Source: an uncultured Poribacteria bacterium
Lineage (GTDB): Bacteria; Poribacteria; WGA-4E; WGA-3G
Reading direction: 5' to 3'
Assembly (NCBI GenBank): GCA_951813565.1
Contig: OX638351.1
Span: 863,389 to 927,388 of the forward strand
DNA: 64,000 nucleotides
In this document: positions 29,245 through 36,445 of the stretch, in pieces
Numbering within the stretch: position 1 is the first letter of the stretch
Layout: every line of letters begins with the position of its first letter
Position numbers and translations under genes: made by a program
The notes under the pieces: generated by a model
The model's database searches: none
What the model was told of the DNA's origin: nothing
What the model saw: only the letters and a program-made list of their open reading frames with translations

Positions 29245-30009
29245 TTAGGCAGCACCGTTTCCGTCGGTTTGACCGTCGCCCATGCCGTCGGTTTGACCAT
29301 CACCCATGCCGTCGGTTTGACTGTCGCCCATACCGTCGGTTTGACCGTCGCCCATGCCGTCGGTTTGACCGTCGCCCATGCCGTCAGTTCCACCGTCCAT
29401 ACCGGTTCCACCATCATCAGTCATAGAGAGCGACACGAAAACGCTATAATTACCCTCACCAGCTTTTACGTGACATCCATGGCACCCACCGGCCATTTCT
29501 ACGGTGAGTTGGTTAGGCATCATCAATTCTTCCGCTGAGGCCACAGGCATACCGGTTACACCATACATCCAACCACCATGATCTGCGTACATCGGATCGT
29601 CAGTTTTCGTCATCGTTGAGATCTGCGCGACAAATGTGTTGGTAGGATCCATAGATTCCTTAATGATCATAGATCCTGCAGGATAAGCTGTCCCTGCATT
29701 GTTCGCCATAGCAGCGGCTTCGTTGAAATAGACGGTCCGGGTACCCGTGCCGTGAGCACCACCGCTCTCCGAGGGTTTGGTTACTTCGGTTGGCGGTACT
29801 GGGAGAGCAACACTCGCCCACGACTTGTGTGCATCCATATCCATCACCATTTCCATCATACTTGTCATGTCCTCGGCATCCATCATCCCCGGTTCCATCA
29901 TTTCCGTATCCGACATCACAGGTTTTAATACATCCTTCGTGCGTTCACAAGCTACAAAAGCCATACAACCGATTAAGACAGCAATTAGGGCTATCTGAAA
30001 TTTTAGCAT
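29245..30009 (-). CDS. Cytochrome P460/c'-beta-like lipoprotein with an acidic repeat tail
   Basis: Lipobox FVAC, YPAGSMIIKE, MTK...GGWMY, CHGCH near the C-terminus. Confidence 0.7.
   Translation of the reverse strand: MLKFQIALIAVLIGCMAFVACERTKDVLKPVMSDTEMMEPGMMDAEDMTSMMEMVMDMDAHKSWASVALPVPPTEVTKPSESGGAHGTGTRTVYFNEAAAMANNAGTAYPAGSMIIKESMDPTNTFVAQISTMTKTDDPMYADHGGWMYGVTGMPVASAEELMMPNQLTVEMAGGCHGCHVKAGEGNYSVFVSLSMTDDGGTGMDGGTDGMGDGQTDGMGDGQTDGMGDSQTDGMGDGQTDGMGDGQTDGNGAA
29261..29385 (-). repeat. 24-bp coding tandem repeat (about 5 copies, DGMGDGQT)
   Basis: CCGTCGGTTTGACCGTCGCCCATG units start at 29261, 29285, 29309, 29333 and 29357. Confidence 0.9.
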
Positions 30010-32872: not shown

Positions 32873-33009
32873 GGCTTGATATAATAGCGTAATTTGAGGT
32901 TTAATTCAAGGAATTTTGTTAGGTGTGGGCACTTAAAGATTGATTGAATTTGTTTGCTGAATGTGTTATCATTATTCTCAAGAAATCCGAATTGTGCGGG
33001 AGAAAAGTG

Positions 33010-34659
33010 ATGCAAGGACTTGTTAACGCCTCTTACAACTCCAGTTTTGTTTACGCTAATAGTCCGCAGGCTCGTAAACAAGATAGTACCGAGGCATACA
33101 ATAACCAAGGCGCTGATCATGATCAAGGACCTGTTAATGCCTCTTATGACTCCAATTTTATTTATGCTAATAATACACCGTCTCGTAAACAGGATAGTGC
33201 TGAGGCATACAATGATCAAGGCATTGATCATGCCAAAAACGGTGAGTACGATCTTGCCATCACCTACTTCAACAAGGCGATAGAACAGGATCCGGGTCAT
33301 GTGCGATCCTATTGTAATCGTGGAGTTACTTACTATTGCAAAGGTGAACATGAAAAGGCAATTAAAGACTTTAACAAGGCTATTAAACTAACTCTAGTTT
33401 CGGAAACTCCTAATGATTCACGTCATTGGATAATTTATAATAATCGCGGTGCTGCTTACGGCAGTAGGGATGAACATGTGAAAGCTATTAAAGATTTCAC
33501 AAAGGCAATTGAACTAAATTCACGCGATGCTGGTGCCCACAACAATCGTGGACTTGTTTATGGGAACGTACTTGATTTTGATCGGGCAATCGAGGATTAT
33601 AACATAGCAATAGAACTAAACCCAAAATATTCTGAAACATATAACAATCGTGGTATAGCTTATTATTACAAAGGTGAATATGATCGAGCAATAATAGATT
33701 ATGACAAAGCAATAGAACTGAATCCAGATCATGTTTTAGCCTATAACAATCGTGGACTTGCTTATAATCTAAATGGCAAACCTGACTGTGCAATAGAAGA
33801 CTTTGACAAGGTAATAAGACGAAAGCCTGACTATGCTGAGGCATATTACAATCGCGGGGCTATCTATGGCAATAAAGGTGAAGTTGATCTTGCCATTAGA
33901 GACTCAAGTAAAGCGATAGAACTCAATCCTGGTCATACTGAAGCATATTACAATCGCGGCGGGGCGTACCTCACTAAAGGCCTTGTTGACAAGGCAATCA
34001 CAGACTTTACCACAACAATAAAACTCAAACCTAATGATGGCTGTGCTTATAATTATCGCGGAGTTGCATATTTCAACAAAGGTAATTTAAGCCAAGCTAT
34101 TGAAGACTTTGCCAAAGCGATAGAACTCAACCCAGATTTTGCTGAGACATACCACTACCGCGGTAAGGCATATTATGTCAAAGGGGATTTGGAAAAGGCT
34201 ATCGTGGACTATACCCAAATGCTTGTTCTGAAGCCAAAGGTTGCCGAATCCTACTACATACGGGGTGAGGCGTACTTGCGCGCGAAGCAGTGGGAAGAAG
34301 CGAAAAGAGACCTTACTGCTGCCATCCTCCAAGATGTGGATATTCGTGAGGTATTCCTTAACACACACGAAAGTTTTGATGCTTTTGAGAAGAAAACGGG
34401 GACTAAACTGCCGGAAGACATAGGGCATCTGCTATCTTCGAATCCAGAGTCTTTTGAAATTGATAAAGATGCGCGTATAGCATTGGCAATGAAGTATTAT
34501 GAAAATGAAGAACTCAGCAGTGGACTCGCTGCACGACTTGCCGGTGTGTCACGCGAAAAATTTTGGTATCTGATGGGGGATTATGGGCTTTCTCTTTTTG
34601 GTACAGCTGAAGATCTGAAAGAGGAGCTTGAGAATGCCCGTAAAGCCAATCATCAGTAA
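33010..34659 (+). CDS. TPR-array protein with a C-terminal UPF0175 (COG2886)-like domain
   Basis: About 11-12 TPRs (AYNNRG...AI.D...AIELNP). C-terminus ALAMKYYENEELSSGLAARLAGVSREKF. Confidence 0.8.
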   Translation: MQGLVNASYNSSFVYANSPQARKQDSTEAYNNQGADHDQGPVNASYDSNFIYANNTPSRKQDSAEAYNDQGIDHAKNGEYDLAITYFNKAIEQDPGHVRSYCNRGVTYYCKGEHEKAIKDFNKAIKLTLVSETPNDSRHWIIYNNRGAAYGSRDEHVKAIKDFTKAIELNSRDAGAHNNRGLVYGNVLDFDRAIEDYNIAIELNPKYSETYNNRGIAYYYKGEYDRAIIDYDKAIELNPDHVLAYNNRGLAYNLNGKPDCAIEDFDKVIRRKPDYAEAYYNRGAIYGNKGEVDLAIRDSSKAIELNPGHTEAYYNRGGAYLTKGLVDKAITDFTTTIKLKPNDGCAYNYRGVAYFNKGNLSQAIEDFAKAIELNPDFAETYHYRGKAYYVKGDLEKAIVDYTQMLVLKPKVAESYYIRGEAYLRAKQWEEAKRDLTAAILQDVDIREVFLNTHESFDAFEKKTGTKLPEDIGHLLSSNPESFEIDKDARIALAMKYYENEELSSGLAARLAGVSREKFWYLMGDYGLSLFGTAEDLKEELENARKANHQ

Positions 34660-35122
34660 TAATAGTCCCCTCGTTTCGCTCTGGGGACTTAACCTTCTTT
34701 CTCTGTTTCGGGATCTCTACACAGAAGTGTGGATACCACGAGAAGTTGAAAGGGAATTTCTTGGAACGAAAAAAGAAGATCGCCAACAAGCACTCAATGA
34801 TGCTCCATGGATTAAAACTGTTGATTTAACGGATCCGCAAAACGCAGCGGTTTATCAGGGACTTGATGATGGTGAAGCCGAGGTACTGGCTCTTGCTAAA
34901 GAACATAATACACGGTTTGTTCTGCTTGATGAGAAGAAGGCACGGCAGGAGGCTAAAAGAATCGGACTCATTGTGAAGGGAACGGTAGGTATTTTGTTGG
35001 AGGCAAAGAAAAAGGGTTTGATCCATATGATCAAACCACTTATAATAGCGTTGGAGAATAATGGGATGCATCTGAGCAAACCGTTGATTGATTTAGTGTT
35101 ACGAGAAGCAGGTGAGGCATAA
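34634..35122 (+). CDS. DUF3368 PIN-domain protein (VapC-like)
   Basis: IISNNSPL, IPREV, LDDGEAEVLALA, LLDEKKAR, GTVGIL. ATG 34634 follows GAGGAG and overlaps the upstream gene by 26 nt. Confidence 0.85.
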   Translation: MPVKPIISNNSPLVSLWGLNLLSLFRDLYTEVWIPREVEREFLGTKKEDRQQALNDAPWIKTVDLTDPQNAAVYQGLDDGEAEVLALAKEHNTRFVLLDEKKARQEAKRIGLIVKGTVGILLEAKKKGLIHMIKPLIIALENNGMHLSKPLIDLVLREAGEA

Positions 35123-35214: not shown

Positions 35215-36445
35215 TTATTCCACCAATCCAATCACACCGCAACCAATACGAGAACCGCCACCCGGTCTAACCCCTAACGCTTTTAGCACAGAGACAATCC
35301 ACTCGCCAAACGCTGCATCGTCCCCTTGGAAGTAACCTAATACCCACGCAGTCGTCCGATCATCCAGAAAACTGGTAAGCAGAACGTTATAACCAGCCAT
35401 GTCAGCAGGATTTTCTAAGTCTATTCCCGAAGCGATATAGAGATGCGTTAACCGTTTCTGCATCTCCTGTTCAAAATCTGCAGGTGTTCCAGTAGGAAAA
35501 GTCTGCTTATATTGATTTGTAAAGAAATCAGGGTCTACGGGCAATCCTATAGATATAAAGAATTCTTGGTAGGCAGCTAAATTTTTAGGATCAATTTCCA
35601 AAAATGCTTGATACGTTTGAGACCCCTTAATCGGAATTGCAAATAAAATTTCCGGATTTGCTAACTGTGTCAGGACTTAAAAAACACTTAAGCAGTAGTT
35701 CCAGTAAATCATGGCTATGCGGACTCACCGCTTGACCGGGAAGATGATGATCCGCTTCCAAATCTATCTGCTGACCAAGCATTGCCAGTGTGCAAGCGTG
35801 AGTGGTTTGTGCCATCTCTGTTCCCGGCTGCATTTGTCCAATATTATGGGAATGTGTGCCTGTGTCAGCGTGAGGATTTATTTGGAAGGTATCACCTGTT
35901 TCATGGATAAGTATCAGTTTACCAAGAATATCGGTGCTTGGGTCGCCGCCAACAGACCAGAAAGGTGTTGTAAACTCTAAAACACCTATGCCATCTGTGC
36001 CAACCGAAATGTTGCCAATTTCACCCACACCGATAGGCGGTGTGCCCAGTGTCGCTTCGGCAACAGACACACCGACTGTCCCCGCTTGAACATCCATAGG
36101 ATGCCAGTGCGGTCCCACGTCGTCACAACCGCTACCGATATGAAGATGTGCTGCGTGCAAGCCAGAGACAGCATCCTCAATCTCAATCACGACATGAACA
36201 CCGCTGTCAGTCTCCGTGAACATGGCTGTTCCAGTCAAATCACTTCCGTCTATTGCAGATATGGTAGCAACTGCGACTTTATCGCCGGGTTCGGCAGTGA
36301 TAACCTCTGTCGGAATCCTTTCGCAACCAATAACTAACCATGTTGTCAAAATGAGAACGAATAATAAAACACAGGTATAAGATTTAACAATTGGTAAATT
36401 GTTTTTGTAGGAGGGGTTTGAAACCCCAATTTGTAGGAATAGCAT
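35215..36445 (-). pseudogene. Cu/Zn-SOD-family lipoprotein split by a +1 frameshift (35627-35676), with a large insertion
   Basis: Upstream ORF has HAAHLH, C..VGPHW, GEIGN and LIHE. Downstream ORF ends GGGSRIGCGVIG, the SOD C-terminal signature. The true start is uncertain. Confidence 0.75.

What the first reader, a model, noticed from the sequence alone, without database searches (positions are those of the whole stretch)
33010..35122. TPR array fused to a UPF0175 antitoxin-like domain, translationally coupled to a DUF3368 PIN gene
Seen: about 11-12 TPRs and a cap run in frame into a UPF0175-like HTH (LSSGLAARLAGVSREKF). The PIN gene starts inside its last 26 nt with its own RBS. There is no signal peptide. 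Known: small UPF0175 + DUF3368 pairs are predicted TA modules, and TPR arrays act as phage-protein sensors in several defence systems. Inference: a sensor-gated TA/abortive-infection system in which ligand binding to the TPRs releases a PIN RNase.
Basis: partly seen in the sequence, partly recalled or inferred. Interest (0 to 1): 0.68.

Follow-up and report, generated by a model that had tools for sequence, protein, structure and literature searches.

The report
TPR-extended antitoxin with PIN nuclease partner
A sponge-symbiont (Poribacteria) genome carries a toxin-antitoxin-like gene pair whose "antitoxin" has a long protein-binding TPR array, and relatives across the phylum vary the array from 1 to 30 repeats and sometimes add immune-type TIR or FRG domains, so it looks like a modular sensor-plus-nuclease conflict system rather than an ordinary TA pair.

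Summary
Gene A (33010-34659, 549 aa) has a short N-terminal motif, 10 TPRs, a capping TPR, helical linkers and a full-length UPF0175 domain. Gene B (34634-35122, 162 aa) is a DUF3368/COG2405 PIN-like protein. It starts 26 nt inside A, behind a GAGGAG site.

The fusion is not a strain accident. The same 549-aa gene is in at least 8 independent metagenome assemblies. 75 related loci occur in 59 species-level genomes, all titled Poribacteria or "uncultured bacterium". They have 1-30 TPRs. 63 of 75 have a DUF3368 gene or remnant directly downstream, and 51 of those are intact.

Five relatives carry N-terminal TIR or FRG domains that match PADLOC defence models. The PIN matches candidate defence system PDC-S70.

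The array is the fastest-diverging part of the protein, and one co-occurring strain has TPRs 2-5 swapped for a divergent cassette.

Several points count against a simple phage-sensor story:
- The modules sit at conserved chromosomal sites among housekeeping genes.
- All parts are under purifying selection.
- A third of loci lack an intact PIN.
- The first catalytic Asp is Asn, which is typical of the family.

Verdict: a new variant of a known kind. The sensor-gated mechanism is plausible but untested.

The parts
32944..32972 (+). Candidate sigma-70-type promoter (TTGAAT-17-TATCAT with TG) in the 137-nt SurA/gene A divergent intergenic region. A weak 15-nt inverted repeat (32903-32917 / 32936-32950) overlaps its -35 hexamer.
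   Evidence: Consensus scans only. This is not evidence of function.
33010..34659 (+). Gene A: 549-aa TPR-array-UPF0175 fusion protein, the putative sensor-antitoxin.
   Evidence: ORF and RBS. Pfam TPR_1 x10 plus UPF0175. The identical gene was called in at least 8 metagenome assemblies.
33008..33232 (+). 111-bp tandem duplication (2 copies, 82% match) encoding the N-terminal motif GLVNASYxSxFxYANxxPxxRKQDSxEAYN. The motif occurs once in relatives L016 and L026.
   Evidence: TRF; alignment and phmmer.
33199..34242 (+). Ten canonical 34-residue TPRs (aa 64-411). Repeat 2/3 carries a 9-aa insertion (LVSETPNDSRHW region).
   Evidence: Pfam; local repeat HMM.
33286..33657 (+). Strain-variable cassette (aa 93-216, TPRs 2-5). 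In L007 it is replaced by a divergent segment (76 aa changes, 8 aa shorter, about 67% nt identity) while the flanks are 98.8-99.6% identical. L006 has a 44-nt patch with the same left breakpoint.
34243..34407 (+). Capping TPR (aa 412-445) and helical linker (aa 446-466). This 'constant' junction is conserved in all relatives.
   Evidence: Alignment A1. The AF2 model of aa 412-549 has pLDDT 88 and pTM 0.76 and is all-helical.
34408..34635 (+). UPF0175 (PF03683 / COG2886) HTH-like antitoxin domain, aa 467-542. The C-terminal tail (aa about 531-549) has lower model confidence.
   Evidence: Pfam E 1.2e-15. PADLOC PDLC05076, E 2.6e-7. Only weak Foldseek hits, to HTH DNA-binding domains including Fis and HipB.
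34621..34626 (+). GAGGAG ribosome-binding site for gene B, inside the end of gene A.
   Evidence: Read from the sequence.
34634..35122 (+). Gene B: 162-aa DUF3368/COG2405 PIN-like protein (PADLOC PDC-S70). Putative metal-site residues are N9, E41, E81 and D99 (plus E100).
   Evidence: Pfam; PADLOC E 3.8e-43; residue conservation. The identical protein is on 12 contigs.

Best explanation
The locus is a member of a Poribacteria-wide family of sensor-extended UPF0175-DUF3368 modules.

Shown:
- Gene A joins a variable TPR array to a constant cap-linker-UPF0175 module.
- Gene B is the cognate PIN-like protein, with an overlapping start.
- Across the phylum the array length (1-30 repeats) and an optional N-terminal domain (none, TIR, 2xTIR or FRG) vary, while the UPF0175 + PIN core stays constant.

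Inferred mechanism:
- The UPF0175 domain binds and silences the PIN nuclease, as in the canonical small UPF0175/DUF3368 pair.
- The TPR superhelix binds a protein or peptide cue, most likely from an invading element.
- Binding changes the conformation, oligomeric state or stability of A. The PIN is then freed to cut RNA. In TIR/FRG paralogues a second effector would fire too. The result is growth arrest or abortive infection.

The window's copy is an effector-less version in which the PIN is the only output.
For: - Homology of both halves to the predicted COG2886-COG2405 TA pair, with the same order and overlap. On plasmids the pair is a UPF0175 of 81-96 aa plus a DUF3368 of 163-166 aa. The literature reports UPF0175 exclusively next to COG2405 (PMC5499597, PMC2701414).
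- PADLOC PDC-S70 matches gene B over its full length. One PDC-S70 representative protected E. coli B against T4, T5 and T7 (bioRxiv 10.1101/2024.09.26.614923).
- 75 loci in 59 species genomes, with 63 carrying a PIN gene or remnant directly downstream.
- N-terminal TIR_2/ThsB_TIR (L044, L051, L066) or FRG (L083, L030) lies in the same open frame as the TPRs and UPF0175. These domains hit PADLOC ThsB (1.3e-25), Aga_TIR (1.7e-16) and PDC-S15 (2.8e-30). Genes found upstream of the module in some loci hit PDC-S31 (DUF2971), PDC-M63A (DUF6932) and type IIG RM.
- At one orthologous site the N-terminal domain differs between species: TIR, 2xTIR, FRG or none.
- Conservation gradient against the closest long relative: UPF0175 93%, cap/linker 76%, TPR 58% with repeat indels, N-terminus 44%.
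- The most variable TPR positions are 13, 12, 9 and 5, which lie on the concave ligand face.
- A strain-level cassette swap is confined to TPRs 2-5.
- PIN and UPF0175 divergences co-vary, r = 0.73.
- The C-terminal module is predicted as one rigid helical unit.
Against: - There is no direct evidence of toxicity, neutralisation, ligand binding or phage defence for this family.
- The modules occupy at least 3 syntenically conserved chromosomal sites. Site 1, SurA...Sod_Cu, is shared by about 26 loci with SurA identity down to 43%. Neighbours are mostly housekeeping genes, and only 4-5 of 136 neighbours are RM genes. None was found in phage or IMG/VR collections. This is unusual for mobile defence or TA genes.
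- dN/dS is 0.18 for TPR positions, 0.25 for concave positions and 0.165 for the C-terminal module. That is purifying selection with no arms-race signal.
- 12 of 75 loci have no PIN and about 12 have a broken one, yet the TPR-UPF0175 frame stays open.
- The first PIN acidic site is Asn in all 42 aligned close homologues and in 51 of 53 PINs at the related loci. It is also Asn in 87 of 130 family representatives. Catalysis is therefore not assured.
- The PIN AF2 model was poor (pLDDT 55), and no PDB relative was found by sequence.
Confidence: 0.5

Rival explanations
1. It is an ordinary selfish or addiction-type type II TA pair. The TPR array is only a scaffold (for oligomerisation, stability or chaperone docking) that stands in for the usual dimerisation or extension of the antitoxin. 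It senses nothing.
For: The order and overlap are the canonical UPF0175-DUF3368 arrangement. Duplicate identical copies lie between IS630/IS1595/IS3 transposase genes in one genome. Frequent PIN loss with antitoxin retention is typical of TA decay.
Against: A scaffold role does not explain array lengths of 1-30 repeats, variability on the concave face, cassette swapping, or in-frame TIR/FRG domains. Most copies sit at conserved chromosomal sites rather than on mobile elements.
Confidence: 0.2
2. It is a domesticated, ligand-responsive regulator. The TPR array senses a cellular or host-derived peptide and controls the HTH-like UPF0175 domain, in the manner of RRNPP/AimR-type TPR+HTH regulators. 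The PIN is a regulated RNase for RNA turnover or stress control and has no role in immunity.
For: Phylum-wide synteny at housekeeping sites and purifying selection on every part. The TPR-UPF0175 gene persists without the PIN in a third of loci. UPF0175 is HTH/Fis-like (PMC2701414; weak Foldseek hits).
Against: TIR, FRG, DUF2971 and RM associations, together with PADLOC matches, point to conflict systems. No conserved operator or target was identified; there are only weak promoter and inverted-repeat matches.
Confidence: 0.17
3. The PIN-like protein is catalytically inactive because the first acidic residue is Asn. It would then act as an RNA-binding or adaptor subunit, so the pair is not a toxin-antitoxin system at all.
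For: N9 is invariant in the close homologues and is Asn in 51 of 53 PINs at the related loci. Matelska et al. list COG2405 with 2-5 active-site residues, marked '+/-' (PMC5499597).
Against: E41, E81 and D99 are conserved in 129-130 of 130 representatives. Asn occupies this site in two-thirds of the whole family, and that family includes the PDC-S70 models. The residue at this site in the tested representative is unknown.
Confidence: 0.08
4. It is a eukaryote-like repeat protein used by the symbiont to manipulate the sponge host, and the TA-like partner is incidental.
For: Poribacteria and other sponge symbionts are known for expanded TPR/ankyrin 'eukaryote-like' proteins. This rests on my own knowledge and the general literature returned.
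Against: There is no N-terminal hydrophobic signal (read from the sequence). The fusion to UPF0175 and the coupled PIN are conserved in 63 of 75 loci. The added TIR and FRG domains are cytoplasmic immune-type domains.
Confidence: 0.03

Closest known systems
UPF0175 (COG2886) - DUF3368 (COG2405 PIN) predicted type II toxin-antitoxin pair; PADLOC candidate PDC-S70
   Same: Both domains are present in the same order, with overlapping stop and start. The PIN matches PDC-S70 models end to end. Canonical examples occur on cyanobacterial and haloarchaeal plasmids.
   Different: Canonical UPF0175 proteins are single-domain and 81-126 aa long. That holds for all 120 top hits of a family-profile search, of which three are Poribacteria sequences already found. 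Here the domain is the C-terminus of a 549-aa protein behind 10 TPRs and a cap, and in relatives it lies behind TIR or FRG domains. PDC-S70 is defined as a single-gene (PIN) candidate.
Effector-TPR-GreA/B-C-PIN conflict system (Kaur, Iyer, Burroughs, Aravind 2021, PMC8195603; Pfam PF20698)
   Same: A variable N-terminal effector (including TIR) is combined with TPRs and a constant PIN-type nuclease. PF20698 weakly hits 77 of 108 DUF3368 representatives, best E 7.6e-7.
   Different: That system is a single polypeptide with a GreA/B-C domain and no UPF0175. Here no GreA/B-C domain is found, the PIN is a separate gene, and the window's PIN scores below threshold on PF20698 (15 bits against 27.8).
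Avs / bacterial STAND-NLR-like defence proteins with TPR sensor arrays (own knowledge)
   Same: The tripartite logic is shared: an N-terminal effector (TIR or nuclease), a repeat-array sensor, and variability in the array.
   Different: A has no NTPase (STAND/NACHT) module. The constant module is an antitoxin-like HTH domain plus a separate PIN.
Sensor-antitoxin systems such as fused CapRel(SJ46) or Abi-type TA modules (own knowledge)
   Same: The proposed logic is the same: the antitoxin moiety doubles as the sensor of a phage protein and releases the toxin.
   Different: The protein families are unrelated, and nothing has been tested here.
RRNPP / AimR peptide-sensing regulators (TPR + HTH; own knowledge)
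   Same: A TPR array is coupled to a small HTH-type domain in one protein.
   Different: The domain order is reversed (HTH is N-terminal in RRNPP). There is no homology to UPF0175, no partner nuclease and no signalling-peptide gene.

Membership tests
UPF0175-DUF3368 (COG2886-COG2405) type II TA pair | Upstream gene encodes a UPF0175/COG2886 HTH-like domain | tested here: met
   PF03683 covers profile positions 1-75 of 75, E 1.2e-15, 57.4 bits against a cut-off of 27.9.
UPF0175-DUF3368 (COG2886-COG2405) type II TA pair | The antitoxin is a small (about 80-100 aa) single-domain protein | tested here: not met
   Gene A is 549 aa with 10 TPRs and a cap. Canonical members are 81-126 aa.
UPF0175-DUF3368 (COG2886-COG2405) type II TA pair | Downstream, same-strand, overlapping DUF3368/COG2405 PIN gene | tested here: met
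   26-nt overlap; PF11848 E 4e-12. The arrangement is conserved in 63 of 75 relatives.
UPF0175-DUF3368 (COG2886-COG2405) type II TA pair | The toxin arrests growth and the cognate antitoxin neutralises it | not testable with these tools
   Needs expression experiments. I found no experimental validation for this family in the papers I searched.
PIN-domain nuclease (VapC-like group) | Four conserved acidic metal-binding residues | tested here: inconclusive
   E41, E81 and D99 are conserved in 129-130 of 130 representatives. The first site is Asn here and in 87 of 130 representatives.
PIN-domain nuclease (VapC-like group) | PIN fold | tested here: inconclusive
   The AF2 model is poor (pLDDT 55). 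There are no PDB sequence hits. The assignment rests on weak Pfam PIN-family hits among relatives and the published classification (PMC5499597).
PADLOC PDC-S70 (candidate defence system) | Match to PDC-S70 HMMs | tested here: met
   PDLC05071 E 3.8e-43 over residues 6-161. Seven PDC-S70 models hit B, and one (PDLC05076) hits the UPF0175 part of A.
PADLOC PDC-S70 (candidate defence system) | Confers phage resistance | not testable with these tools
   One unrelated representative was positive in E. coli B (bioRxiv 10.1101/2024.09.26.614923). Nothing is known for the Poribacteria family.
TPR-GreA/B-C-PIN conflict system (PF20698) | Single polypeptide containing TPR, GreA/B-C and PIN domains | tested here: not met
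   Neither protein has a GreA/B-C hit. The PIN is a separate gene, and PF20698 scores 15.1 bits, below the 27.8 cut-off.
STAND/Avs NLR-like defence proteins | Central STAND NTPase domain between effector and repeat sensor | tested here: not met
   No NTPase family appears among the Pfam, NCBIfam or PADLOC hits of A, nor in the N-terminal segments of the TIR/FRG relatives.
RRNPP/AimR regulators | N-terminal HTH followed by a C-terminal TPR peptide-binding domain | tested here: not met
   The order is reversed (TPR N-terminal, HTH-like C-terminal) and there are no matches to these families.

The most novel reading that the evidence does not exclude
Poribacteria have turned an antitoxin domain into the constant adaptor of an NTPase-free, NLR-like receptor family. 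Interchangeable TPR sensor arrays are reshaped by repeat gain and loss and by cassette recombination. Interchangeable N-terminal effectors (TIR, FRG) are all wired through UPF0175 to a PIN nuclease. The modules are kept at fixed chromosomal 'immune loci' that are inherited vertically across the phylum.
Probability: 0.3. Interest if true: 0.8.

Novelty: new variant of a known kind. Interest (0 to 1): 0.62.

Why it matters
If the model holds, the family would show how a minimal TA pair acquires a dedicated sensor and extra effectors. It would link classical TA modules to pattern-recognition immunity of the Avs/NLR type without an NTPase switch. It would also assign a function to UPF0175/DUF3368 (PDC-S70), which is one of the more abundant untested defence candidates, especially in archaea. 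Finally, it would explain part of the large TPR expansion long noted in sponge symbionts as intracellular immunity or regulation rather than host manipulation. The natural series is a ready-made experimental panel: 1-30 repeats, with or without TIR/FRG, with or without the PIN, plus allelic cassettes within one population.

Tried and rejected
- The first homologue search with the last 138 aa of A returned only proteins of 239 aa or less. This suggested the long array was unique. It was a database artefact: the window's 549-aa protein is not in that collection, and a DNA-level scan found open frames up to 1354 aa.
- A recent in-situ amplification of the TPRs is rejected. TRF finds no 102-bp periodicity, only the 111-bp N-terminal duplication.
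- Pervasive positive selection on the array is rejected, with dN/dS of 0.18-0.25.
- A classic defence-island context is rejected for most loci.
- Phage or viral carriage: nothing in INPHARED or IMG/VR.
- AF2 of the PIN with a shallow alignment failed (pLDDT 55), so I ran no fold search on it.
- PDB sequence and profile searches for both proteins gave nothing meaningful. The ABC-ATPase hits are spurious LSGGE/LLDE matches. Entry 2mdt, which PMC5499597 lists for COG2405, was not retrieved.
- Foldseek with the C-terminal module gave only non-significant hits to HTH domains.
- The RNA-run search found only runs of unknown type (probably DNA) that hold the locus and no clear RNA-seq run, so co-transcription remains untested.
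- I could not establish whether TPR-UPF0175 fusions exist outside Poribacteria. The genome scan used Poribacteria-type peptide patterns, and only the top 120 of 2709 UPF0175 hits were visible.
Full report
**1. The observation**

The region holds two same-strand genes. Gene A runs from ATG 33010 (GGGAGA site 6 nt upstream) to the stop at 34657-34659 and encodes 549 aa. Gene B runs from ATG 34634 to 35122 and encodes 162 aa. It starts 26 nt before the end of A, with GAGGAG at 34621-34626.

Pfam gives A ten significant TPR_1 stretches and a full-length UPF0175 domain at aa 467-542 (E 1.2e-15). It gives B a DUF3368 domain at aa 114-159 (E 4e-12). NCBIfam adds only generic TPR families.

PADLOC models of the candidate system PDC-S70 cover B end to end (E 3.8e-43). 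One PDC-S70 model also hits the UPF0175 part of A.

A repeat HMM built from the window's own repeats resolves the following layout:
- a 63-aa N-terminal region
- ten 34-residue TPRs (aa 64-411)
- a capping repeat (aa 412-445)
- two short linker helices
- the UPF0175 domain

The N-terminal region results from a 111-bp tandem duplication (33008-33232, 82% match) of a motif that relatives carry once. The window holds only one copy of the module.

**2. Not an artefact or a one-off**

The PIN protein is found with an identical sequence on 12 contigs from different metagenome samples. Eight of the ten loci fetched hold the complete upstream gene. It is 549 aa in seven and 541 aa in one, always in the same synteny: cytochrome P460-like, 536-aa TPR protein, SurA | A, B | Sod_Cu, PhyH, aminotransferase. 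The other two contigs end inside the gene.

The names that sources give to close PIN homologues, and all 75 loci recovered from one-genome-per-species GTDB contigs, point to Candidatus Poribacteria, the sponge symbionts. The 75 loci come from 59 assemblies by my count of accession prefixes, and several genomes carry two or three copies.

The first protein search suggested that relatives were all 239 aa or less. That was a property of the database, which does not contain the window's 549-aa protein. At the DNA level, the open frame that contains the UPF0175 match is 175-1354 aa long with 1-30 TPRs.

A DUF3368 gene or remnant lies directly downstream in 63 of 75 loci. In one subclade it overlaps by 26 or 23 nt, as in the window; in the other it follows a 2-3-nt gap. 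Of these 63, 51 are intact and about 12 are truncated or carry stops. Twelve further loci have none.

**3. Relation to the canonical pair**

On cyanobacterial and haloarchaeal plasmids the pair is annotated as a 'UPF0175 family protein' of 81-96 aa followed by an overlapping 'DUF3368 domain-containing protein' of 163-166 aa.

A profile search across the UPF0175 family returned 2709 hits. The 120 best were all single-domain proteins of 81-126 aa, mainly from haloarchaea and cyanobacteria.

The literature adds the following:
- Makarova et al. predicted COG2886 (UPF0175) as an HTH, Fis-like antitoxin of PIN toxins (PMC2701414).
- Matelska et al. place COG2405/DUF3368 in the VapC-like PIN group as 'potential toxins' with 2-5 active-site residues. 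They note that UPF0175 occurs exclusively next to COG2405 (PMC5499597).
- PDC-S70 is a PIN-domain candidate defence system that is abundant in archaea (PMC12988326).
- One randomly chosen PDC-S70 representative reduced plating of T7 and T4 about 100-fold and of T5 about 1000-fold in E. coli B (bioRxiv 10.1101/2024.09.26.614923).

I found no paper that describes a TPR-UPF0175 fusion.

**4. What the family adds**

(a) Modularity. Five of the 75 open frames carry an N-terminal domain ahead of the TPRs:
- TIR_2 in L044 (1354 aa, 30 TPRs) and in L051
- two TIR domains (TIR_2 plus ThsB_TIR) in L066
- FRG in L083, and probably in L030, where it depends on a GTG start

These segments match PADLOC models of Thoeris ThsB (1.3e-25), pAgo-associated TIR (1.7e-16), PDC-S66 and PDC-S15 (2.8e-30). 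Upstream genes in some loci are DUF2971 proteins (PDC-S31) or Eco57I-type IIG RM enzymes.

At the window's own chromosomal site, a related genome (L003 = OZ241980.1) has a different arrangement:
- a 632-aa TIR + 12-TPR + cap + linker protein that stops exactly where UPF0175 would begin
- a DUF6932 gene (PDC-M63A) and a 73-aa gene
- a 207-aa 3-TPR-UPF0175 gene with no PIN

(b) Conservation gradient. Against the closest long relative (L016), identity is 93% in UPF0175, 76% in the cap and linker, 58% in the TPRs (with whole-repeat indels) and 44% at the N-terminus.

(c) Variable positions. Across 274 full repeats, the highest-entropy positions are canonical TPR positions 13, 12, 9 and 5. To my knowledge these line the concave ligand-binding groove. 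This is a general property of TPRs, so it is consistent with ligand binding but not decisive.

(d) Population mosaic. One sample (L007) is 98.8-99.6% identical to the window over about 10 kb. Within gene A, however, aa 93-216 (TPRs 2-5) are replaced by a divergent cassette with 76 aa changes, 8 aa shorter and about 67% nt identity. The best other match to this cassette is the orthologue L026, at 78%. A second sample (L006) carries a 44-nt patch with the same left breakpoint. This looks like recombination confined to the array. Metagenome assembly chimerism cannot be fully excluded.

(e) PIN and UPF0175 divergences co-vary (r = 0.73), as expected for cognate partners.

**5. Evidence that tempers the defence reading**

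- The modules sit at three or more syntenically conserved chromosomal sites.
  - The window's site, SurA...Sod_Cu, is shared by about 26 loci from genomes whose SurA is as little as 43% identical. TPR counts there range from 2 to 21, one locus has an FRG fusion, and several have lost the PIN.
  - A second site holds the TIR, double-TIR, FRG and effector-less versions in different species.
- Immediate neighbours are mostly metabolic genes (MR_MLE, Sod_Cu, TauE, GFO/IDH/MocA, GNAT). Only 4-5 of 136 neighbours are RM genes.
- Nothing similar was found in phage genomes or IMG/VR contigs. Only one genome shows duplicated copies between transposase genes.
- Across 68 pairs with 70-97% identity, dN/dS is 0.18 for non-concave TPR positions, 0.25 for concave positions and 0.165 for the C-terminal module. 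Every part is functional and constrained, and there is no overt arms-race signal.
- The first PIN acidic site is Asn (N9). It is invariant in the 42 aligned close homologues and is Asn in 51 of 53 PINs at the related loci.
  - It is also Asn in 87 of 130 representatives of the wider family at 50% clustering.
  - E41, E81 and D99 are conserved in 129-130 of 130.
  - Asn here is therefore a trait of the family, not a local loss, but activity is not guaranteed.

**6. Structure**

AF2 models aa 412-549 as one compact all-helical unit (pLDDT 88, pTM 0.76). The last 18 or so residues are less confident, which would fit a partner-dependent tail, but that is inference. Foldseek finds no significant PDB match; the weak hits are HTH DNA-binding domains including Fis and HipB. 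The PIN model was unusable (pLDDT 55), and neither protein has a PDB relative by sequence or profile. Many family members weakly match Pfam PF20698, the PIN of the effector-TPR-GreA/B-C-PIN conflict system (PMC8195603). That system is an independent precedent for pairing TPRs with this kind of PIN.

**7. Interpretation**

The best-supported reading (about 0.5) is a sensor-extended UPF0175-DUF3368 module. The UPF0175 domain holds the PIN in check. The TPR array binds a protein or peptide cue. Binding releases or activates the PIN and, in some paralogues, a TIR or FRG effector.

Shown:
- the architecture and its conservation
- the modular variation
- the defence-type domain associations
- selective constraint on every part

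Inferred:
- A-B binding
- PIN toxicity
- the identity of the ligand
- the gating step

The rivals are a plain addiction module with a non-sensing scaffold (0.2), a domesticated ligand-responsive regulator/RNase pair (0.17), an inactive PIN adaptor (0.08) and a host-directed eukaryote-like protein (0.03).

**8. Novelty and score**

The components and the logic are known. The fusion of a repeat sensor to UPF0175, with optional TIR/FRG domains, its phylum-wide fixed loci and its allelic cassettes appear to be undescribed in the library I searched. I rate it a new variant of a known kind, with interest 0.62.

Noticed in passing
window 35215-36445 (- strand): In the window the Cu/Zn superoxide dismutase-like gene downstream of the PIN is split into 272-aa and 128-aa ORFs. 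Strain L007 has one intact 409-aa gene, and the difference is a 1-nt indel near 35669. Most samples of this population share the split form.
   Followed up: partly
L003 3322-6624 (OZ241980.1), syntenic with window 32873-35122: At the same SurA...Sod_Cu site a related species has a different arrangement. A 632-aa TIR + 12-TPR + cap/linker protein ends exactly where UPF0175 should start. It is followed by a DUF6932 gene (PADLOC PDC-M63A), a 73-aa gene and a 3-TPR-UPF0175 gene with no PIN. It looks as if an inserted small module split a longer TIR-TPR-UPF0175 gene.
   Followed up: partly
L001 and L002 (CBDANF010000003.1, 836932-849579 and 2473239-2485886): One genome holds two identical copies of a roughly 4.4-kb block. 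The block contains IS630-family transposase fragments, two small ORFs (one homologous to the 73-aa gene of L003), the 215-aa TPR-UPF0175 gene, the PIN and three further ORFs. Different IS elements flank the two copies, which suggests recent duplication or transposition.
   Followed up: no
window 29245-30009 (- strand): A cytochrome P460-like protein has a C-terminal low-complexity tail of GMGDGQTD repeats. Its called length differs between samples of the same population (246 vs 254 aa), which suggests variation in repeat number.
   Followed up: no
L084/L085 (OY762492.1, 1297114-1316260): Two family members lie within 7 kb of each other in one genome. Extra DUF3368 genes lie upstream of the 1-TPR copy. 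The PIN at L085, like that at L081 in another genome, keeps Asp at the first catalytic site.
   Followed up: no
L020, L039, L041, L045, L055, L057, L065, L066, L083, L088 (inside the long arrays): The longest arrays (19-26 TPRs) share a non-TPR insert of about 75 aa at a similar position, roughly two-thirds of the way along the array. I did not characterise its nature.
   Followed up: no
window 1-64000: No tRNA genes and no Rfam family reach threshold anywhere in the 64-kb window.
   Followed up: yes
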